Shown here: positions 15,995 through 57,444 of the stretch, piece by piece
How positions within the stretch are numbered: the stretch's first letter is position 1
Layout of the letters: every line of letters begins with the position of its first letter
Source of the DNA: Bdellovibrionales bacterium
GTDB taxonomy: Bacteria; Bdellovibrionota; Bdellovibrionia; Bdellovibrionales; UBA1609
Direction of reading: 5' to 3'
Length of the DNA: 64,000 bases
Assembly (NCBI GenBank): GCA_965205645.1
Contig: OZ242172.1
Coordinates: 704,122-768,121 of the forward strand
Position numbers and translations under genes: made by a program
Notes under the pieces: model-generated
What the model saw: only the letters and a program-made list of their open reading frames with translations
Told to the model about the DNA's origin: nothing
Database searches by the model: none

Positions 15995-16449
15995 TGGTTA
16001 GTGCTATTCTCATTGGTATTTGGTACATTCGTTTTATTCATATTATCTGGAGCTGTGTTTTTTATTTTACTTGTTTCTACGTCTGGTGTGTTCTGGTTAG
16101 ATGGTTTTGTGTCTTCCGCTGTATTACTTTTTACTTTAGCATCAGCAGGAGCTGAATTTGAAGAGGTGCTGTCTGTCGTCTCAGGCGCATTAGTATATTG
16201 ATCTATCACACTGGTGTTTTTATCTGAACTTAAAGCAGCTAGATAAATGGAAGTAAAGGCAAATATAATAGCCGTCCATTTAGTCACACCGACTAAAAAT
16301 TGATTCGCGCCAGAACTGCCAAATAAACTCTTTGTTCCTCCACCTCCAATAATACCAAAAGCTCCGCCTCCTTTTGGATCTTGAAGTAAAATAAAAATTA
16401 TCATAATAAAAGAGACAATAATATGCACAATGGAAAGAAAGGTAAACAT
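15991..16449 (-). CDS. secG: Preprotein translocase subunit SecG with a low-complexity C-terminal tail
   Basis: ILLQDPKGGGAFGIIGGGGTKSLFGSSGANQFL is the SecG signature. Confidence 0.9.
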   Translation of the reverse strand: MFTFLSIVHIIVSFIMIIFILLQDPKGGGAFGIIGGGGTKSLFGSSGANQFLVGVTKWTAIIFAFTSIYLAALSSDKNTSVIDQYTNAPETTDSTSSNSAPADAKVKSNTAEDTKPSNQNTPDVETSKIKNTAPDNMNKTNVPNTNENSTNQ

Positions 16450-16483: not shown

Positions 16484-16990
16484 CAACCCCCCCCTCAAAA
16501 GGGGTAACTTCGCCGCGATTCCTTGCACGCATGTCACAATTTTGCTTATAAAGTTCGTCAAGTAAGTAAGTGTCCGCCCCCCAAAGGGGGTAACTTCGCC
16601 GCGATTCCTTGCACGCATGTCACAATTTTGCTTATAAAGTTCGTCAAGTAAGTAAGTGTCCGCCCCCCAAAGGGGGTAACTTCGCCGCGATTCCTTGCAC
16701 GCATGTCACAATTTTGCTTATAAAGTTCGTCAAGTAAGTAAGTGTCCGCCCCCAAAGGGGGTAACTTCGCCGCGATTCCTTGCACGCATGTCACAATTTT
16801 TCACATAAAGTTTGCCAAGTAAGTAAGTGTCCGCCCCCCAAAGGGGGTAACTTCGCCGCGATTCCTTGCACGCATGTCACAATTTTTCACATAAAGTTTG
16901 CCAAGTAAGTAAGTGTCCGCCCCCCAAAGGGGGTAACTTCGCCGCGATTCTGCTGTACGCATGTCACTCCTTGTAAATCATGTTTATCAG
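16484..16990 (-). repeat. Tandem array of 6 units of the hairpin repeat, period 86 bp (one unit is 85 bp), co-oriented with secG
   Basis: The TGTCCGCC landmark falls at 16571, 16657, 16743, 16828 and 16914. Monomer: GTCCGCCCCCCAAAGGGGGTAACTTCGCCGCGATTCCTTGCACGCATGTCACAATTTTGCTTATAAAGTTCGTCAAGTAAGTAAGT. The last two units switch to a TTTTTCACATAAAGTTTGCCAAG linker. Confidence 0.92.
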
Positions 16991-18297: not shown

Positions 18298-19284
18298 ATG
18301 AAAGTGTTAGTAACAGGAGCAACCGGTTTCTTAGGTGGATGGCTGTGTAAAGCTTTGGTGAAAGAAGGGCACTCCGTGCACGCTTTAGTACGCCCTTCCA
18401 GTAATACTAGTGAATTGCAAAAACTGTCTGTTCATTTACATAAAGGGGATGTGACAGATCTTCATTCTTTCATGTCTGCCGCCAGTGGTGGGGTAGAAGT
18501 GTTATTTCATTTAGCAGGGTTGGTGGCTTATGCAGAAAGGCTGCGTTCAGCAATGCAGGCAGTAAATGTAGGAGGGACAGCTAATGCTATTGAAGTGTGT
18601 CGCCAACGAAATATTCGTTTAGTTTACATGAGTTCCGTTGCTGCTGTCGGAGCTAGTCTTACCTCGAAAGTGCTAAATGAAGAATCTCCTTATGAAATGG
18701 ACAAATTTCGTTTCGGGTATTTTGATACAAAAAGGAAAGCAGAAATATTAGTACGACAAGCTTGCCAAAAAGGTGATCTATTTGCAGTTATTTTAAATCC
18801 TTCTAATGTTTATGGTGCAGGGGATATGCGCAAAGCTAGTCGACGGACACATATCTGGGTCGCAACAGGTAGTCTTCCATTTTATACTTCCGGTGGACTC
18901 AGTGTGGTGAACGTGGAATCTGTTATTGAAACCACGATACAAGCTGTGCAAAAAGGCCGGTCTGGAGAAAGATATATTCTCAGTGGTGAAAATATTAGTA
19001 TTCAAAAATTGTTTCAATTGGTAGCGAAAGCTGCCGGTAGTCACCCTCCCTCTATTCGTATGAGTAATTTTGTTTTAGATTCACTCGTGCTGGTTGGCCA
19101 AGGATTAAAAGCGATGGGGTTCCGCTTTTTTTTAAATGATAAAGATATGCGATTAGGTCGATTTTATCACTGGTTTGATCATAGTAAAGCTAGTGCAGAA
19201 CTGGATTTTTCTCCGCAGCCAGCTGCTTACGCTATTTCTAATTCCATTGAGTGGTGGAAAAAACACTGCCAATCAAAAACATAA
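18298..19284 (+). CDS. NAD-dependent epimerase/dehydratase family (extended SDR)
   Basis: MKVLVTGATGFLGGWL and YFDTKRKAE (YxxxK). Confidence 0.8.
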   Translation: MKVLVTGATGFLGGWLCKALVKEGHSVHALVRPSSNTSELQKLSVHLHKGDVTDLHSFMSAASGGVEVLFHLAGLVAYAERLRSAMQAVNVGGTANAIEVCRQRNIRLVYMSSVAAVGASLTSKVLNEESPYEMDKFRFGYFDTKRKAEILVRQACQKGDLFAVILNPSNVYGAGDMRKASRRTHIWVATGSLPFYTSGGLSVVNVESVIETTIQAVQKGRSGERYILSGENISIQKLFQLVAKAAGSHPPSIRMSNFVLDSLVLVGQGLKAMGFRFFLNDKDMRLGRFYHWFDHSKASAELDFSPQPAAYAISNSIEWWKKHCQSKT

Positions 19285-19373
19285 AGTAGGAAGGTAGTAA
19301 CATGAGTGCAGGGACTCGCGGCGAAAGTAACCCCCTATGGGGGCGCGGCGCTGTATCCCCCCCGATTTGGGGG
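19285..19373 (+). repeat. Partial forward repeat unit spanning the argS start codon
   Basis: GTAACATGAGTGCAGGGACTCGCGGCGAAAGTAACCCCCTATGGGGGCGCGGCGCTGTATCCCCCCCGATTTGGGGG compares with the canonical GTGACATGGGAGCAGCGGACTCGCGGCGAAA... Confidence 0.8.
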
Positions 19374-21143
19374 TTGGATCAGTTTACCAGTATTGTATGT
19401 CGCGATTTATCTCGTACCATTCATAAATTATTTCAATTGGATCTGGCAGAAAATCAAATAGCTCAGTACTTTAGTGCTCCTCCACAGGAGGACTGGGGAC
19501 ATTGGGCTTTGCCTTGTTTCTTTCTTGCAAACAAACAAAAAAAAATAAACCCCGCTGCAGCTTCTGCACAAATTGCAAACGCTTATCAAGTTCCCTCTAC
19601 TATATTTGAGCGAGTTGTCGCAAAAGGTCCTTATGTAAATTTTTTTTTTCAACCAGCTTTTTTATGTCAAAAGCTACTGAATCCCATCCGTTCCGGAGAG
19701 TTATTTCAATTGCCACCTAAAAAAAATAATCCATGGTTGGTGGAATACTCACAACCTAATACACATAAGGAATTACATATCGGCCACTTAAGAAATTTAT
19801 GTTTCGGTTTAGCTTTAACCACTTTATTAAAAAAACGAGGCTTTTCAGTCATTAGCTGTACTTTTCCTGGGGATACGGGCACACATACTGCGAAATGCTT
19901 ATGGTATTTGAAATACCATAATAAAGAAAAACCTCCTGATGAAACACATCCTCCTTTTGTGCGCAAAGGGGCATGGTTAGGATATATTTATACAAAAGCT
20001 TGCTTAAAATTTGAGGAAGCTGTCAAAGAGGCGGACTCTGCTCCGATCGTTCAAAAACAAGTGACGGATATTTTGAAACAACTACAGTCCAAACAAGGTG
20101 ATATTTATGAGCTATGGAAAGAAACACGCGAATGGAGCTGTGATTTAATGAAACAAGTGTACGAGTGGGTAGGAGTGCAATTTGACAAATGGTATTGGGA
20201 ATCAGAAGTGGATGAACCTTCCGTTCAGTTGATTAAAGATCTTTATCAAAAAAAACAACTCACTAAATCTGAATCAGCTATTGGTAAAGACTTAGGTTCA
20301 AAATTGGGATTTTGTTTGCTATTAAAATCAGACGGTAATGGATTATACGCTACTAAAGATATTTATCTAGCTAAAAAAAAGATGGAAGATTATCACCCGG
20401 AAAAAAATATTTATATCGTGGACCAAAGACAAGAGCGACACTTCCAACAAGTGTTCGCTGTATTAGATCATATTGGTTGTTCAGAAATTGCCAGCCGATC
20501 TAAACATTTAAAATATAACTTTGTACAACTACCTTCTGGTCCTATGAGCTCTAGAGACGGAAATATCGTTCCTATTATGGACATAATCCAAAAAATGACA
20601 GCTTATGTGAAAAAACAGTTTTTACAAAAATATGAGAATAACTGGGATAAAGATCAACAAGAACAAGTAGCTCGTCAAGTTGCTGAAGGAGCTATTAAAT
20701 ATGGAATGAATGAGCAGGATTTAAACAAAAAAATTATTTTTAATATGCAGGAATGGCTCAATTGGGATGGTAAATCAGGGCCGTATATTCAGTATGCATA
20801 CGCCAGATCTTGCTCTCTTTTAAAGAAATTCAATGCGGATAATCAGACGATTCAATACAAAGAACCAACTGCGTTTTCACCGGAAGAACAGTCAATTATT
20901 GTGCACCTTTCTCGTTTCTCTCTCATAATGGAAAATAGCGCCTGGCAAATGAAAACCGCACCCGTTTGCCATTATTTATTCGATCTGGCTAAACAGTTTT
21001 CCCGCTTCTATCAAAATTGCCCCATCGGTAGTTTAAAAGATCAAGAGAAGAAAAATTTTCGCCTGTTTCTCGTGCAGGTCGTTCAATCAGCCCTGAAAGA
21101 AGGACTATCCTACCTGTCCATTCCCACCCCTGAAAAAATGTAA
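19302..21143 (+). CDS. argS: Arginine--tRNA ligase. The first ~24 codons are repeat-derived.
   Basis: HIGHLRN class-I motif, PMSSRDGNIV, and a DALR-like C-terminus. The ATG at 19302 is the ATG carried by the repeat. An alternative in-frame TTG lies at 19374. Confidence 0.9.
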   Translation: MSAGTRGESNPLWGRGAVSPPIWGLDQFTSIVCRDLSRTIHKLFQLDLAENQIAQYFSAPPQEDWGHWALPCFFLANKQKKINPAAASAQIANAYQVPSTIFERVVAKGPYVNFFFQPAFLCQKLLNPIRSGELFQLPPKKNNPWLVEYSQPNTHKELHIGHLRNLCFGLALTTLLKKRGFSVISCTFPGDTGTHTAKCLWYLKYHNKEKPPDETHPPFVRKGAWLGYIYTKACLKFEEAVKEADSAPIVQKQVTDILKQLQSKQGDIYELWKETREWSCDLMKQVYEWVGVQFDKWYWESEVDEPSVQLIKDLYQKKQLTKSESAIGKDLGSKLGFCLLLKSDGNGLYATKDIYLAKKKMEDYHPEKNIYIVDQRQERHFQQVFAVLDHIGCSEIASRSKHLKYNFVQLPSGPMSSRDGNIVPIMDIIQKMTAYVKKQFLQKYENNWDKDQQEQVARQVAEGAIKYGMNEQDLNKKIIFNMQEWLNWDGKSGPYIQYAYARSCSLLKKFNADNQTIQYKEPTAFSPEEQSIIVHLSRFSLIMENSAWQMKTAPVCHYLFDLAKQFSRFYQNCPIGSLKDQEKKNFRLFLVQVVQSALKEGLSYLSIPTPEKM

Positions 21144-53919: not shown

Positions 53920-54915
53920 TTGATGTTGCTCACTTTAAAAAAGTTAGATCAGCAATTAGAGAAAGGTCAAGTATCTCCTTTATATTTCATTATGGGGCCA
54001 GAGATTTTTCTTGTTCAGGAAAGTCTACGGATGATTCAGTCTCATGTATTATCTCCTGAAGCTTTAGATTTTAATTACGAGGTGTTTTATGTCAGTCGTG
54101 CATCAGTGGAGGCGATGCGTTCAGCGGTAGAAACTTTACCTGTATTTTCTAAAAAACGGGTAGTGGTATGTGAGGAGGCGCAAAATTTGAAGGAATCGGA
54201 TTGGAAGTTAATTGAGCCTATTGTAATGAATCCAGTTTCTACTTGTGTTTTAATTTTTATTTCGCGGGAATTGGATAAGCGGCGAAAGATCACTAAGCAG
54301 TTGATGTCCTGTTGTACTATGGTATCTGCTCAAACGCCTAAGGAGAGTGAATGGCCAGTATGGATTAAGTGGATGGGGCAAAAGAAGGGATTAACTTTCT
54401 CTGCTACTGCTTTGGAATTATTAAAAAATCAGGCAGGTTATCACTTAATAGTTATAAAAAATGAAATAGAGAAATTAGCGCAATTTTTAGGTGATAAAAA
54501 GCAAGTATCTATTGAAGATGTGTTAAAGGTGGTGCCACGTACACGTCCAGAAAATATCTTCGCCTTGTCTCGTGCGATTGGGCAAAGGAAATTATCTGCT
54601 GCTTTGCTGTGTTGGACACGGCTTTTAGAGGATAATCAAAGTATTCTGAGTGCATTAGCTTTAATTACTCGGCATATTCGTATTTTAGCCAGGATAAAAG
54701 AAGGGGTTAAGAAGGGGCATACGCATAAGGTGTTATGTCAGAAAGCGGGTGTACCTTTTTTTGTTATCCATGATTATATTCAGGAAGCAAGTTTATGGAC
54801 AGAGCATAAAATTATGTCTGTGATGGAAATACTATTAGAGGCGGATCGAACGATTAAATCTTCTGGTGCAACATCTGTTTGGATGGAGAATTGTATTATT
54901 AAAGCTTGTTTATAG
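53920..54915 (+). CDS. holA: DNA polymerase III delta subunit
   Basis: Size, the N-terminal PLYFIMGPEIFL pattern, and a helical C-terminus. Confidence 0.7.
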   Translation: MMLLTLKKLDQQLEKGQVSPLYFIMGPEIFLVQESLRMIQSHVLSPEALDFNYEVFYVSRASVEAMRSAVETLPVFSKKRVVVCEEAQNLKESDWKLIEPIVMNPVSTCVLIFISRELDKRRKITKQLMSCCTMVSAQTPKESEWPVWIKWMGQKKGLTFSATALELLKNQAGYHLIVIKNEIEKLAQFLGDKKQVSIEDVLKVVPRTRPENIFALSRAIGQRKLSAALLCWTRLLEDNQSILSALALITRHIRILARIKEGVKKGHTHKVLCQKAGVPFFVIHDYIQEASLWTEHKIMSVMEILLEADRTIKSSGATSVWMENCIIKACL

Positions 54916-55170
54916 CTGGTTGGTAAGGGAAGCCAAGCGGGATTTTTTTCTATCCGCTTTTCGGCGATGAGTTAATCCTTTACGGACGGATTTATCTATA
55001 GTGATACTGAACTGTTTCAGTTGTTCTGTTGCTTTAGGTTTATCTTTTTGTTGGACGGAGCCTCGTAAGTTTTTTTCTAAGGTATTGATTCGACTTTGTA
55101 TATTTTTATTAATTTTGGTGCGACGAATGGTTTTCCGAATACTTTTTTTTGTAGATGAATGATTGGCCAT
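54910..55170 (-). CDS. rpsT: 30S ribosomal protein S20
   Basis: MANHSSTKKSIRKTIRRTKINK..., basic, 86 aa. Confidence 0.9.
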   Translation of the reverse strand: MANHSSTKKSIRKTIRRTKINKNIQSRINTLEKNLRGSVQQKDKPKATEQLKQFSITIDKSVRKGLTHRRKADRKKSRLASLTNQL

Positions 55171-55289
55171 AGAGGCTAACTCCTGTTATAGGGTGTTTAT
55201 TAGCAAGTGTTATCATGGTTTTTTTTATTTTGCAAGGTAGATGAAATTCAGAGTGTATAGGGTTTTTTAATAGGGAATGGGGGACGTTT

Positions 55290-55626
55290 GATAAACATAA
55301 TTTACAAAGTCGTGACAATAGCGCAAATGGAACCGCGGCGAAAGTAACCCCCTATGGGGGCGGCGAGTCGGCGGGGACGTTTAATAAACATAATTTGCAA
55401 AGTCGTGACAATAGCGCAAATGGAGCCGCGGCGAAAGTAACCACCTATGGGGGCGGCGACTTGCCGCCGCGGCGAAGTATCCACCTCCGATTCGGGGGTG
55501 CGGTTGTATAGGTACTTAATGAGCATGATATGCACAGTAGTGACATGAAAGCAGCGGAATCACGGCGCAATGTCAGCGGCGACTTGCCGCCGCGGCGTAA
55601 TCACTCCTCCATTGGGGGGGTGCGGT
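55290..55626 (+). repeat. Three forward repeat units in the rpsT-murJ divergent spacer, running into the murJ ORF
   Basis: GATAAACATAATTTACAAAGTCGTGACAATAGCGCAAATGGAACCGCGGCGAAAGTAACCCCCTATGGGGG..., a second unit at 55383, and a third diverged unit (GAGCATGATATGCACAGTAGTGACATGAAAGCAGCGGAATCACGGCG...) at 55520. Confidence 0.9.
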
Positions 55627-57197
55627 TAGCTGTATTGATGGCCTGTGGCACTTTTATTTCACGTGTTTTGGGGTTAGTGCGTGACATGGTCATTGGTGCA
55701 TTTTTTTCCAGAACGCACACGGACGCTTTTTTTGTAGCTTTTCGTGCACCTAATTTTTTTCGTCGGTTTTTAGGAGAGGGTGCTCTTTCTATTAGTTTTA
55801 TTCCTGTTTTTATTCAATGTTTGTCTGAATCATCGGAGGGTAAGGAAGGGTCGGCGGTACGTGCCAGGAATTTTGTCAACAGTGTGTATACAATTATGTT
55901 GATTATGGTTGGTGTGTTGACTGTAGTGGGCATTATTTTCATGGATCCATTATTACGAGCTTTATTTGCTAATACGGCTTTTGCGGATATAGAGGGAAAA
56001 GTGAGAATGGTGACTGTGTTAGCCAGGTGGCTATTTGTCTATTTATTTTTAGTTACTTTATATGCTTATTTTATGGGGATTGCTAATGCTTTGGGTTCAT
56101 TTTTCATTCCGGCGGTAGCTCCGGCTTTATTAAATGTGTGTATTATTATTTTTTCATTGGTTCCTCATTCTATTGTCTCTCTTCCTCCTTTGTTGTTGTG
56201 TTGGGGGGTATTGCTTGGGGGGGTATTACAGGTATTATTAACAGCGGTTGTGCTTTACCGTTTAGGTTTTTTACCTAGGTTGACCTGGCAATTTTCTCGA
56301 TCTGATTTGAAAGTAATGGGCGTTCGATTTTTGCCAGGATTATTAGGAGTGGGTGGTTTTTCCGTCATTAGTTTATTAAATTTATATTTTGCGGCGTGGT
56401 TAGAGGAAGGTGCGCATACGTTTATTTATTATGGGGATCGTTTGTTGGAACTACCTCGTTCTTTAATTGCGATTAGTTTAGGTGCTGCTTTGTTACCGAA
56501 TCTTTCTTATTTTATGGTTGCTGGTAAAAGGGATGAGTTATCGGATTCAGCCGCTTGGCAAAGGGATATTTTATTATTTTTGATTGTGCCTTGTGCTTTG
56601 GCTTTTTGGTATTTAGGGCTTCCGATTGTGGATGTATTATTTCGGAGGGGTTTATTTGATGAGGATACCACTCGCAAGACAGCTCTCGTGTTACAAATTT
56701 ATTCTGTACTATTAATTACGTCTTCTTTAAGTCGGATATTAGCTACTTGTTTTTATGCGGTAAGAAATGTTTGGTATCCGGCTTTGGCTTGTTTTTTGTA
56801 TATTGTTTTTCATTGGTGTTTTACTCCGTTTATGATTGATTGGTTTGGTTTAGAAGGATTGGTGTGGGCAACGGTGGTTTCTAATGCATTTTTTATGAGT
56901 CTGCTTTTATTTGCTTATCCGTTTTATGTAGGGTGTTTACATGTTTGGAGAACTATTCGGCGGTGGTTATGGTCTGCGCCGGCGTTAGTTTTATTATATT
57001 TATACTTACATTTTTCTATTTATTTTTTTCCATCCTTATGGTTAGTGAGAGAAGATCGGGTGTCTACTAGTGCTTTAGTTTTTGTTATTTTATCGTCCAT
57101 TGTTTTATACATTGGGGTAGGGTGGTTGCTACGTGTACCTCAGGCATTAGAGTGTATACGATTAGCTAGTAAAAAGGCAAAATCGGTTAAAACTTAA
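55530..57197 (+). CDS. murJ: Lipid II flippase MurJ. The first ~30 codons of the longest ORF are repeat sequence.
   Basis: SRVLGLVRDMVIGAFF...AFFVAFRAPNFFRRFLGEGALSISFIPVF. A GTG at 55620 (VRLAVLMACGTF...) would give a conventional N-terminus. Confidence 0.9.
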   Translation: MHSSDMKAAESRRNVSGDLPPRRNHSSIGGVRLAVLMACGTFISRVLGLVRDMVIGAFFSRTHTDAFFVAFRAPNFFRRFLGEGALSISFIPVFIQCLSESSEGKEGSAVRARNFVNSVYTIMLIMVGVLTVVGIIFMDPLLRALFANTAFADIEGKVRMVTVLARWLFVYLFLVTLYAYFMGIANALGSFFIPAVAPALLNVCIIIFSLVPHSIVSLPPLLLCWGVLLGGVLQVLLTAVVLYRLGFLPRLTWQFSRSDLKVMGVRFLPGLLGVGGFSVISLLNLYFAAWLEEGAHTFIYYGDRLLELPRSLIAISLGAALLPNLSYFMVAGKRDELSDSAAWQRDILLFLIVPCALAFWYLGLPIVDVLFRRGLFDEDTTRKTALVLQIYSVLLITSSLSRILATCFYAVRNVWYPALACFLYIVFHWCFTPFMIDWFGLEGLVWATVVSNAFFMSLLLFAYPFYVGCLHVWRTIRRWLWSAPALVLLYLYLHFSIYFFPSLWLVREDRVSTSALVFVILSSIVLYIGVGWLLRVPQALECIRLASKKAKSVKT

Positions 57198-57204
57198 GTA
57201 ATAC

Positions 57205-57437
57205 TGGCAGGTTGCCGGTGACATTTATTTGTAAACATGATTTGCAAAGTTGTAACATGGGAGCAGCGGACTCGCGGCGAAACCACTCTCCCTTTGAGGG
57301 AGCGGCGCCGCCGAGTCGGCGGAGACACTTTTGGTAAACATAATTTGCAAAGCAGTGACATGGGAGCAGCGGACTCGCGGCGAAACCACTCTCCCTTTGA
57401 GGGAGGGGCGAAATCACTCTCCCTTTGAGGGAGGAGG
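57205..57437 (+). repeat. Two forward repeat units filling the murJ-ybeY spacer
   Basis: GTAAACATGATTTGCAAAGTTGTAACATGGGAGCAGCGGACTCGCGGCGAAACCACTCTCCCTTTGAGGGAG..., repeated from 57326. CTCCC-TTTGA-GGGAG hairpins occur 3 times. The last G-arm abuts GGAGG, 7 nt before the ybeY ATG. Confidence 0.9.
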
Positions 57438-57444
57438 TTAGGAA

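What the first reader, a model, noticed from the sequence alone, without database searches (positions are those of the whole stretch)
19285..19376. The repeat carries its own ATG and supplies the apparent start codons and N-termini of argS and murJ
The canonical head ends ...GTGACATGGGAGCAGCGG.
- At argS, the only ATG upstream of the conserved ArgS N-terminus (19302) is this element ATG (GTAACATGAGTGCAGGGACTCGCGGCG). It is preceded by GGAAGG 7 nt upstream. This gives a 24-residue repeat-encoded leader (MSAGTRGESNPLWGRGAVSPPIWG) unless the TTG at 19374 is used.
- At murJ, the ORF from 55530 contains the same element ATG (55545), and 30 repeat-encoded residues precede a GTG at 55620.

Either the element donates translation starts and N-terminal extensions, or gene callers will systematically over-extend these genes.
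Basis: partly seen in the sequence, partly recalled or inferred. Interest (0 to 1): 0.6.

Follow-up and report, generated by a model that had tools for sequence, protein, structure and literature searches.

The report
Selfish repeat supplies gene start codons
In a small-genome relative of Bdellovibrio, a lineage-specific selfish DNA repeat has overwritten the original beginnings of argS, murJ and at least four other housekeeping genes, and its own ATG most likely now starts their translation, adding a floppy extra tail; this is a new example of a known but rarely documented way in which repeats remodel genes.

Summary
In this genome those native start codons and N-terminal tails are gone, replaced by the repeat. 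TTG 19374 and GTG 55620 are conserved internal Leu and Val codons where native sequence resumes.

RuvB, PurD, RpiB and TrhO show the same replacement.

Evidence that the repeat-head ATGs are the working starts:
- They lie in ordinary initiation contexts (opening energy 4.8-10.9 kcal/mol; real starts have a median of 7.7).
- The junction codons sit against GC hairpins at 15.9-21.7, at or beyond the 99th percentile.
- Gene-leading heads carry unusual SD-like changes (GGAAGG at argS).
- All 11 arrays that abut an ORF are open in the gene's frame for at least 27 codons (null 32%).
- Relatives keep the frame despite different leaders.

ATG 19302 is therefore the probable argS start. murJ is less certain.

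Small repeats that give genes a ribosome site and ATG are already known (Neisseria REP2; BOX and BRE 5' extensions). I rate this a new variant of a known kind, of moderate interest.

The parts
18298..19284 (+). NAD-dependent epimerase/dehydratase gene upstream of argS. Its stop codon TAA lies at 19282-19284, 17 nt before ATG 19302.
   Evidence: ORF and Pfam PF01370. The same neighbour precedes argS in relatives.
19289..19294 (+). Shine-Dalgarno-like GGAAGG, 7 nt before the repeat-head ATG.
   Evidence: Duplex with the 16S 3' end (…CACCUCCUUUCU) is -7.8 kcal/mol. That ranks 4th strongest of 144 heads. Alignment with the sister strain shows it sits at the joint of a 95-nt unit indel.
19291..19323 (+). 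Repeat head copy (…AAGGTAGTAACATGAGTGCAGGGACTCGCGGCG), with ATG at 19302-19304.
   Evidence: nhmmer hit at genome 723412-723444.
19302..19373 (+). 24-codon repeat-encoded leader of argS. It contains two GC hairpins: CCCCC-TAT-GGGGG at 19331-19343 and CCCCCCC-GATTT-GGGGG at 19357-19373.
   Evidence: Sequence. It replaces the native M-x(6-17)-FF tail seen in 13 genus orthologues and in the 85%-identical sponge-metagenome relative. AlphaFold2 gives pLDDT below 50 for residues 1-20, and the first helix starts at residue 27.
19374..19376 (+). TTG, the conserved Leu codon of the ArgS 'LD-x-FT' motif, where native sequence resumes. It is the rival start codon.
   Evidence: Relatives read TTA, CTG, CTA or TTG here. 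SD duplex is -0.9 kcal/mol. Opening energy is 15.9 kcal/mol, the 99th percentile of real starts.
19302..21143 (+). argS ORF as publicly called (613 aa).
   Evidence: Pfam Arg_tRNA_synt_N, tRNA-synt_1d and DALR_1. An exact 613-aa entry is in the protein collection; the 589-aa form is absent.
54910..55170 (-). rpsT, divergent neighbour of murJ.
   Evidence: ORF. Pfam Ribosomal_S20p on the sister locus.
55228..55249 (+). Relic head (TTTTGCAAGGTAGATGAAATTC), shared with the sister strain. In the sponge relative this position holds an intact head with ATG.
55260..55525 (+). Strain-variable block of repeat units (266 nt) lying directly upstream of ATG 55530. It is absent from the sister strain.
   Evidence: BLAST and sequence comparison of the window with L084.
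55519..55567 (+). Repeat head at murJ. It carries ATG 55530 (at the head's usual 'TTGCAA' position) and the canonical head ATG 55545.
   Evidence: SD duplex is -3.8 and 0.0 kcal/mol; opening energy is 8.5 and 10.7 kcal/mol.
55530..55619 (+). 30-codon repeat-encoded leader of murJ, with two GC hairpins.
   Evidence: It replaces the native M-x(9-16)-KVV tail of 14 genus orthologues. The sister strain has the same length, with 6/90 nt differences (3 synonymous, 3 non-synonymous).
55620..55640 (+). Resumption of native MurJ sequence, V-R-L-A-V-L-M. It holds the rival starts GTG 55620, TTG 55635 and ATG 55638.
   Evidence: It aligns to 'V-R-S-A-L-L-M' of relatives. V31 corresponds to E. coli MurJ residue 4 and M37 to residue 10. 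Opening energies are 19.7, 18.8 and 14.8 kcal/mol.
55530..57197 (+). murJ ORF as publicly called (555 aa).
   Evidence: Pfam MurJ. An exact 555-aa entry is present; the shorter forms are absent.

Best explanation
**What the element is.** A lineage-specific mosaic repeat consists of a 48-nt head followed by GC-rich hairpin modules. Earlier work in this scan showed that it sits in frame inside many genes.

**What it did here.** The repeat also landed on the extreme 5' ends of argS and murJ, and of ruvB, purD, rpiB and trhO elsewhere in the genome. There it replaced the native start codon and the poorly conserved N-terminal tail, up to the first conserved residue.

**How the genes are now expressed.**
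- The head has a stop-free frame (K-H-N-L-Q-S-R-D-M-G-A-A-E-S-R-R).
- That frame contains an ATG in 43% of copies, with a purine-rich AAGG-type stretch about 8 nt upstream.
- In copies that survived on a gene's 5' end, this ATG is in frame with the gene and most likely serves as the start codon.
- For argS this means ATG 19302, with GGAAGG 7 nt upstream and 17 nt after the stop of the preceding gene. The product carries a disordered 24-residue N-terminal tail.
- For murJ it means ATG 55530 or 55545, adding a 25-30-residue cytoplasmic tail.
- Ribosomes then read through the hairpins, as they must in the internal in-frame copies.

**Shown:**
- Replacement of the native starts.
- Openness and frame of the leaders.
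- The sequence context of each candidate start.
- Frame retention in relatives.

**Inferred:**
- Which codon the ribosome actually uses.
- That selection sharpened the SD-like sites.
For: 1. **Native starts are gone.**
- ArgS orthologues start M-x(6-17)-FF-LD (13 genomes; 85%-identical relative).
- MurJ orthologues start M-x(9-16)-KVV-RSALLM (14 genomes).
- RpiB and PurD show the same loss, as do RuvB and TrhO.
- The RuvB junction falls at position 1 of Pfam RuvB_N.

2. **Initiation context**. For 200 clear starts, opening energy of -18..+12 has median 7.7, 95th percentile 13.4 and 99th percentile 15.8 kcal/mol.

| Candidate start | Opening energy (kcal/mol) |
|---|---|
| Head ATG, argS | 10.8 |
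| Head ATGs, murJ | 8.5 and 10.7 |
| Head ATG, purD | 4.8 |
| Head ATG, rpiB | 5.6 |
| Head ATG, ruvB | 10.9 |
| Head ATG, trhO | 8.7 |
| Junction codon, argS | 15.9 |
| Junction codon, murJ | 19.7 |
| Junction codon, purD | 21.7 |
| Junction codon, ruvB | 20.5 |
| Junction codon, trhO | 17.0 |

3. **SD-like sites.** The argS ATG scores -7.8 kcal/mol against -0.9 for the TTG. Three of 5 gene-leading head ATGs score -7 or lower, against 1 of 57 other ATG heads (Fisher p=0.001; ranks).

4. **Open frames.** All 11 arrays that abut an ORF are open for at least 27 codons in the ORF's frame. The null rate is 0.32, giving p about 4e-6.

5. **Relatives keep the frame.**
- The murJ frame is the longest open frame in the sister, sponge and L088 lineages, with leaders of different length and content.
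- The purD leader differs between strains by indels of 1 nt and 22 nt, net 21 nt. The certainly coding ybeY insert shows the same pattern (-2 and +20).
- The sponge PurD keeps an open, AT-rich 21-codon leader from an upstream ATG.
- Large strain indels (95, 266 and about 200 nt) lie just upstream of the putative ATGs of argS, murJ and rpiB. None lies within those three leaders.

6. **rpiB has no canonical junction start.** Without the head ATG, the next in-frame start would delete the KIFIANDHAG strand.

7. **The leader is structurally harmless.** It is predicted disordered, and the ArgS fold starts at residue 27.
Against: - No direct evidence exists.
- The murJ head ATGs have weak or no SD: -3.8 and 0.0 kcal/mol.
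- In the sponge and L088 relatives a strong GGGAGG or AGGTGGG lies 8 nt before the internal ATG ('MASGTF'). There the start may have moved downstream, and the leader may be dispensable.
- The murJ leader differs from the sister strain about 4 times more often than the gene body. Its pN/pS of 0.29 rests on only 3+3 changes.
- The first head of the intergenic secG array has an equally strong AAGGAG+ATG but opens only a 53-codon ORF. A strong SD on a leading head is therefore not proof of gene fusion.
- The SD test and part of the census were defined after looking at the data.
- The sister assembly has 2-4x coverage, so its single-base indels are unreliable.
- SD use in this genome is only moderate: 37% of starts are at -5 kcal/mol or lower.
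Confidence: 0.65

Rival explanations
1. The repeats are purely 5' untranslated leader. Translation starts at the junction codons (TTG 19374 for argS, GTG 55620 for murJ), and gene callers over-extend these genes because the GC-rich repeat happens to be stop-free.
For: - Both junction codons are start-capable and sit exactly where native sequence resumes.
- A protein starting there keeps every conserved domain. The ArgS fold starts at residue 27, and MurJ V31 corresponds to E. coli residue 4.
- GC-rich repeat frames are often open by chance: 32% are open for at least 27 codons.
- The leader diverges fast between strains.
Against: - The junction codons abut hairpins. Their opening energy is at or above the 99th percentile of real starts, and their SD is negligible or mis-spaced.
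- They are conserved internal Leu and Val codons. The repeat's 3' end often reads GGGGG-TTG or GGGGG-GTG even inside genes such as ggt, so their presence needs no selection for a start.
- rpiB has no canonical start codon at its junction. At purD the only nearby one, GTG two codons into the conserved strand, has an opening energy of 21.7 kcal/mol.
- All 11 abutting arrays are open in frame.
- Frame-preserving compound indels occur in the purD leader.
- The conserved FF before LD in ArgS would be lost with nothing in its place.
Confidence: 0.2
2. Mixed or dual initiation. Long (head ATG) and short isoforms are both made. Alternatively, argS uses the head ATG while murJ starts downstream, at GTG 55620 or at the internal ATG 55638, as seems likely in the sponge and L088 relatives.
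For: - The sponge and L088 relatives have GGGAGG or AGGTGGG 8 nt before the ATG homologous to 55638, and the sponge gene was called from that ATG.
- The murJ head ATGs lack a good SD.
- ATG 55638 has a lower opening energy (14.8 kcal/mol) than GTG 55620.
Against: - In the window the G-run lies 17 nt from ATG 55638, too far for a normal SD.
- A start at 55638 would remove the first 9 residues of TM1 relative to E. coli MurJ.
- The window keeps V-R-L-A-V-L, resembling the native V-R-S-A-L-L upstream of that Met. This suggests those codons are still translated.
Confidence: 0.12
3. The affected genes are inactivated relics whose 5' ends were destroyed by the repeat.
For: The native starts are missing. 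The genome is reduced (1.56 Mb, 92% complete).
Against: - The ORFs are full length with intact domains.
- The murJ body has pN/pS of 0.26 against the sister strain.
- argS and murJ each occur as a single copy in this genome, and their functions are essential in well-studied bacteria.
- The ArgS model has mean pLDDT 91.
Confidence: 0.03

Closest known systems
Neisseria REP2 repeats (Parkhill 2000; Morelle 2003; reviewed by Delihas 2011, PMC3184786)
   Same: A dispersed small repeat with internal stem-loops sits immediately upstream of ORFs. [quoted passage not shown]
   Different: - REP2 is said to carry a promoter. No sigma-70-like site was found in the argS or murJ copies.
- In the review read, REP2 is described only upstream of genes, not inside them.
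- Here the same element is mostly found in frame inside genes. It has replaced native start codons of core housekeeping genes, and only 43% of heads carry the ATG.
- Sequence relationship was not tested.
Rickettsia palindromic elements (RPE; Ogata 2000; PMC1779305)
   Same: Selfish, hairpin-forming repeats proliferating in a small AT-rich genome. They are tolerated in frame in housekeeping genes as extra, probably floppy peptide.
   Different: - RPEs are described as internal inserts. In the papers I searched I found no report of them replacing a start codon; one search gave no relevant passage.
- This element is modular (head plus variable hairpins), forms tandem arrays and is strongly co-oriented with genes.
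BOX/RUP/SPRITE of Streptococcus pneumoniae and BRE of Bordetella (Croucher 2011; Hot 2011, as summarised in PMC3184786)
   Same: Repeats whose open frames are fused to chromosomal ORFs, including extensions of gene 5' ends.
   Different: As summarised in the review read, those cases are ORF fusions in the annotation; the review mentions no orthologue evidence that the native start was lost. Here that loss is shown for six genes.
MIRUs of Mycobacterium (Supply 1997, in PMC3184786)
   Same: Small intergenic repeats carrying short ORFs that overlap neighbouring genes, which suggests translational relay. The sister strain's argS has a 32-codon repeat ORF whose TGA overlaps the in-frame head ATG as ATGA.
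   Different: In the window the repeat frame is fused to the gene rather than coupled to it. The sister assembly has only 2x coverage.

Membership tests
REP2-type 'portable translation start' repeats | Multi-copy repeat lying directly upstream of ORFs and fused to them. | tested here: met
   144 heads in 80 arrays. Eleven arrays abut ORFs in frame, and six of those genes have lost their native start.
REP2-type 'portable translation start' repeats | The element carries its own ATG initiation codon. | tested here: met
   ATG is present at the canonical head position in 62/144 copies. It is present in the gene-leading heads of argS, murJ, purD, ruvB and trhO.
REP2-type 'portable translation start' repeats | The element carries a ribosome-binding site. 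| tested here: inconclusive
   The consensus has only AAAG or AAGG 8 nt upstream of the ATG, and the median duplex is -0.9 to -1.4 kcal/mol. Strong sites (GGAAGG, GAAAGG, TGAGG) occur mainly in gene-leading copies.
REP2-type 'portable translation start' repeats | The element carries a promoter. | tested here: not met
   The consensus sigma-70 scan finds no + strand site in the argS or murJ copies. This is a crude test only.
REP2-type 'portable translation start' repeats | Sequence similarity to Neisseria REP2. | not tested
   No REP2 sequence was available in the tools. The head is absent even from 14 congeneric genomes, so homology is unlikely.
RPE-like in-frame selfish repeats | Dispersed hairpin-forming repeat in a reduced, AT-rich genome. 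| tested here: met
   The genome is 35.7% GC and 1.556 Mb. The modules are GC hairpins.
RPE-like in-frame selfish repeats | Inserted in frame in intact protein genes. | tested here: met
   ybeY has its Pfam domain intact around the insert. 28 arrays lie internal to long ORFs, nearly all co-oriented with the gene.
RPE-like in-frame selfish repeats | Sequence membership in RPE-1 to RPE-10. | not tested
   No RPE models were at hand. Rfam gives no hit on either leader.
Cis-regulatory leader RNA (riboswitch, T-box, attenuator) | Match to a curated RNA family, or a terminator/antiterminator design. | tested here: not met
   No Rfam hit at E<=1. No terminator-like hairpin with a T-run. The same sequence is a genome-wide repeat.

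The most novel reading that the evidence does not exclude
The head may not be a passive passenger. It could be a selected, portable translation-initiation cassette: a purine-rich pre-SD, TTG and ATG five codons apart, and a stop-free frame.

Such a cassette would let the element colonise and overwrite the start regions of essential genes without killing the host. Start-codon replacement would then be part of how the element spreads and persists.

Possible supporting signs:
- Apparent microhomology-guided junctions: the same hairpin module followed by TTG sits at the conserved Leu of both ArgS and RuvB.
- Rapid strain-to-strain unit turnover, which could act as a tuning knob for expression of the captured genes.
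Probability: 0.15. Interest if true: 0.7.

Novelty: new variant of a known kind. Interest (0 to 1): 0.45.

Why it matters
- **Breadth of the effect.** A selfish repeat can take over the translation start of core, single-copy housekeeping genes: a tRNA synthetase, the lipid II flippase, RuvB, PurD, RpiB and TrhO. This goes beyond adding internal loops.
- **Evolutionary route.** It gives a natural series of before and after states: a native start in an 85%-identical relative, fresh repeat leaders in two strains, and decayed AT-rich leaders in a third lineage. Together these show how a new N-terminus and start codon can be born and then fixed.
- **Practical consequence.** Annotation of these MAGs cannot be corrected by the usual rule of trimming to the orthologue start. 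The orthologous start no longer exists.
- **Testability.** The leaders give ready-made peptides for checking the claim in metaproteomes.

Tried and rejected
- **Strain variants in JGI metagenomes.** An exact 35-nt scan of metagenome contigs for the argS junction flank found nothing.
- **The element's tail carrying its own SD-like G-run plus an NTG start ('GGGGG-NTG-GAT').** Only a subset of array ends read this way, and the same ending occurs inside ggt. It is a feature of the repeat's 3' end, not a selected start.
- **The array 5' variant AACGAGGAGA as a dedicated start module.** Seen in a handful of copies and not followed up.
- **dN/dS of the murJ leader between strains.** pN/pS is 0.29, but from only six changes. 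The leader also mutates faster than synonymous sites of the gene body, so the result is inconclusive.
- **The rpiB leader.** It is nearly identical between strains while the gene body is about 10% diverged. This probably reflects a recombination tract and says nothing about selection.
- **Known RNA family, promoter or terminator in the leaders.** None found.
- **Literature search for RPEs replacing start codons.** No such report appeared in the library searched.
Full report
**1.

At argS the sequence reads TAA (epimerase stop, 19282-19284), TAG (19287-19289), GGAAGG (19289-19294), TAGTAAC, then ATG 19302.
- Seventy-two stop-free bases follow, made of repeat head and two GC hairpins.
- TTG 19374 comes next.

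At murJ the ORF opens at ATG 55530.
- It passes the canonical head ATG at 55545.
- It reaches GTG 55620 after 30 codons.

Pfam confirms both genes: ArgS (N, catalytic and DALR domains) and MurJ.

The repeat is real and abundant.
- Iterated nhmmer finds 144 head copies (83 on the + strand, 61 on the - strand) in 80 arrays in the 1.556-Mb, 35.7% GC genome.
- 62 heads carry ATG at the 'GTGAC-ATG' position. The rest read AAT, AAG or ATA.
- The head is absent from the 14 other species genomes of the genus.

Earlier agents of this scan had already described the family as an RPE-like repeat sitting in frame inside ggt, ybeY, exoIII, ampD, sufD and nadE. I took that as a lead and re-saw it in my own census.

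**2.

The relatives are uncultured 'Bdellovibrionales' MAGs of 1.3-2.3 Mb.

*ArgS.*
- In 13 same-genus genomes ArgS begins M-x(6-17)-FF-L-D-x-F-T. The start is ATG in 12 and GTG in one.
- In the window the FF and the start are missing. The repeat runs right up to the L-D.
- TTG 19374 is therefore the conserved Leu codon (TTA, CTG, CTA or TTG in relatives).
- The closest relative found is a sponge-metagenome contig with 85% ArgS identity and the same bioB-epimerase-argS synteny. It has the native start MDTKDSQKTTTSKALFF-LD, a 48-nt spacer and no repeat.
- The insertion is therefore recent. It replaced about 80 nt of spacer plus tail.

*MurJ.*
- Fourteen genus orthologues begin M-x(9-16)-(Q)KVV-(R/K)SALLMSxGTF.
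- In the window, native sequence resumes at V-R-L-A-V-L-M. GTG 55620 is the conserved Val.

**3. The same has happened to other genes**

A census of arrays against long open frames, with orthologue checks, gave four more cases.

| Gene | Native beginning in relatives | State in this genome |
|---|---|---|
| ruvB | M-x(11-33)-L-RP… | The junction is at position 1 of Pfam RuvB_N |
| purD | MN-VLVLG… | GGG-CGA-GTA; there is no start codon at the junction itself |
| rpiB | M-x(2-12)-KIFIANDHAG | No canonical start between the head ATG and a TTG that would delete the first strand |
| trhO | M-x(3-22)-(FE)-IVSFY | Native start lost; the array abuts FE-VVSFY |

In all six genes the frame is open through the array to a head ATG. 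Public annotation uses those long forms: 613, 555, 407, 468, 163 and 402 aa.

Other arrays show different arrangements:
- Some sit after a retained native start, for example in pilin leader peptides between MKxKK and G|FxLxE.
- Others sit in a 5' UTR before an intact native start (secG, a phosphomannomutase gene, an EF-G paralogue, ybeY).

**4. Which codon starts translation? Indirect tests**

*(a) Initiation context.*
- The 16S 3' end is canonical.
- SD use is moderate: 37% of 676 clear starts have a duplex of -5 kcal/mol or lower, against 13% of background.
- ATG 19302 scores -7.8 kcal/mol with G's at -13 to -8, where real starts are G-enriched. TTG 19374 scores -0.9.

*(b) mRNA structure*.
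- For 200 clear starts, the ensemble energy to open -18..+12 has median 7.7, 95th percentile 13.4 and 99th percentile 15.8 kcal/mol.
- Head ATGs fall in the normal range: argS 10.8, murJ 8.5 and 10.7, purD 4.8, rpiB 5.6, ruvB 10.9, trhO 8.7.
- Junction codons are extreme: argS TTG 15.9, murJ GTG 19.7, purD GTG 21.7, ruvB TTG 20.5, trhO GTG 17.0.

*(c) SD-like changes in gene-leading heads.*
- Among all 144 heads, ranks 2, 4 and 5 for SD complementarity are the leading heads of purD (GAAAGG), argS (GGAAGG) and ruvB (TGAGG).
- Three of 5 gene-leading ATG heads score -7 kcal/mol or lower, against 1 of 57 others (Fisher p=0.001).
- The one exception is the first head of the secG array. It has AAGGAG plus ATG but opens only a 53-codon ORF. 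The signal is therefore suggestive, not proof.

*(d) Frame openness.*
- I selected arrays only by having at least 100 open codons directly downstream and not being internal to a gene. This gives 11 arrays.
- All 11 are open for at least 27 codons upstream in the gene's frame.
- Only 32% of 201 control frames at array ends are.

**5. Closer relatives as natural experiments**

The sister lineage (ENA ERZ25067264) has 97% MurJ identity.

*murJ.*
- The sister has the same 30-codon leader. It differs at 6/90 bases (3 synonymous, 3 non-synonymous) with no indel.
- A 266-nt block of repeat units lies immediately upstream of ATG 55530 in the window only.

*argS.*
- The sister has two units. The 72-nt leader from the in-frame head ATG is the same length, with one base difference.
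- The extra 95 nt lie upstream of that ATG.
- The extra unit's own GGAAGG-ATG opens a 32-codon ORF whose TGA overlaps the in-frame ATG as ATGA.
- This contig has 2x coverage, so caution is needed.
- The window's GGAAGG sits exactly at the joint of that 95-nt difference.

*purD.* The two strains carry different head subtypes and hairpin sets. They differ by 1-nt and 22-nt indels that net 21 nt. The undoubtedly coding ybeY insert varies the same way, by -2 and +20.

*trhO.* The strains differ by one 78-nt unit.

*More distant relatives.*
- The sponge lineage has a decayed murJ head whose ATG is still in frame (27 codons).
- It also has an AT-rich, decayed but still open 21-codon purD leader from an upstream ATG.
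- In a fourth lineage (L088) the murJ frame is again the longest open frame, at 58 codons, although the head is read in another frame.

*Against a universal rule.* The sponge and L088 relatives have GGGAGG or AGGTGGG 8 nt before the internal ATG ('MASGTF'). In those lineages MurJ may now start downstream.

**6. Protein plausibility**

- AlphaFold2 on ArgS with 40 homologues gives mean pLDDT 91. Residues 1-20 fall below 50, and the first helix starts at residue 27. The leader is a floppy tail comparable in length to native tails (7-17 residues).
- Alignment to solved MurJ structures puts V31 at E. coli residue 4 and M37 at residue 10.
  - GTG 55620 would give a viable protein.
  - ATG 55638 would shorten TM1.
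  - A long form adds a net-positive cytoplasmic tail.

**7. What it is not**

- Neither leader matches any Rfam family.
- Neither leader contains a sigma-70-like promoter or an intrinsic-terminator-like site.

**8. Comparison with known systems**

The Delihas review (PMC3184786) records two precedents:
- BOX and BRE elements extend gene 5' ends.

RPEs are the classic in-frame inserts (PMC1779305). The present element combines both behaviours.

What I did not find reported for those families is orthologue-backed evidence that native start codons of core housekeeping genes were replaced. I therefore file this as a new variant of a known kind.

**9. Verdict**

- The 'donated start' reading is probable for argS (about 0.7).
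- It is plausible for murJ (about 0.55).
- Overall confidence is 0.65.
- No mapped translation start exists. The peptides and mutants listed under next steps would settle the matter.

Noticed in passing
window 57407-57447: The last hairpin of the array between murJ and ybeY ends GAGGGAGGAGG, 7 nt before the native ybeY ATG (57445). Here the repeat may supply a Shine-Dalgarno site rather than a start codon. This intergenic array is 173 nt longer in the sister strain.
   Followed up: partly
window 16801-16962 (- strand): The first head of the six-unit secG-bioB array has AAGGAG 6 nt before its ATG and opens a 53-codon repeat-only ORF. secG keeps its own start at 16449. The unit period is 86 nt, which is not a multiple of 3, unlike arrays inside genes.
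   Followed up: partly
G000:C1:687331-687504, 690236-690314 and 982644-982925 (outside the window): Repeat arrays sit in frame inside type IV pilin-like leader peptides, between the MKxKK start and the G|F-x-L-x-E prepilin cleavage motif. The extra residues would presumably be removed with the leader.
   Followed up: no
window 19352-19376 and G000:C1:77540-77570: The same hairpin module (TATCCCCCCCGATTYGGGGG) followed by TTG forms the junction at both argS (…SPPIWG|LD) and ruvB (…SPPIRG|LRP). In both cases it lands on a conserved native Leu. This hints at microhomology-guided joining or a preferred terminal module.
   Followed up: partly
L062 (G006:C1:859439-862855): In one congener, rpiB has no ATG, GTG or TTG between the upstream stop and KIFIANDHAG. 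AAAGGAG lies 5 nt before an in-frame CTG, which suggests a non-canonical CTG start.
   Followed up: no
L088 1697-4146: In the ERZ25070786 relative, holA is split into two ORFs and murJ is called at only 381 aa with a divergent C-terminus. These are either real frameshifts or long-read assembly errors.
   Followed up: no
window 55495-55515 versus 55612-55637: The strain-variable upstream block ends GGGGGTGCGGTTGTAT. This is a partial copy of the murJ junction GGGGGGTGCGGTTAGCTGTAT. It looks as if a unit was duplicated together with a piece of the gene's 5' end.
   Followed up: partly
G000:C1:1364930, 989069, 982769, 700106, 547160: Several arrays begin with AACGAGGAGA directly before the head. 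This places GAGGAG 6 nt before the ATG of the 'CATGAT' head variant, in a different frame from the usual one.
   Followed up: no
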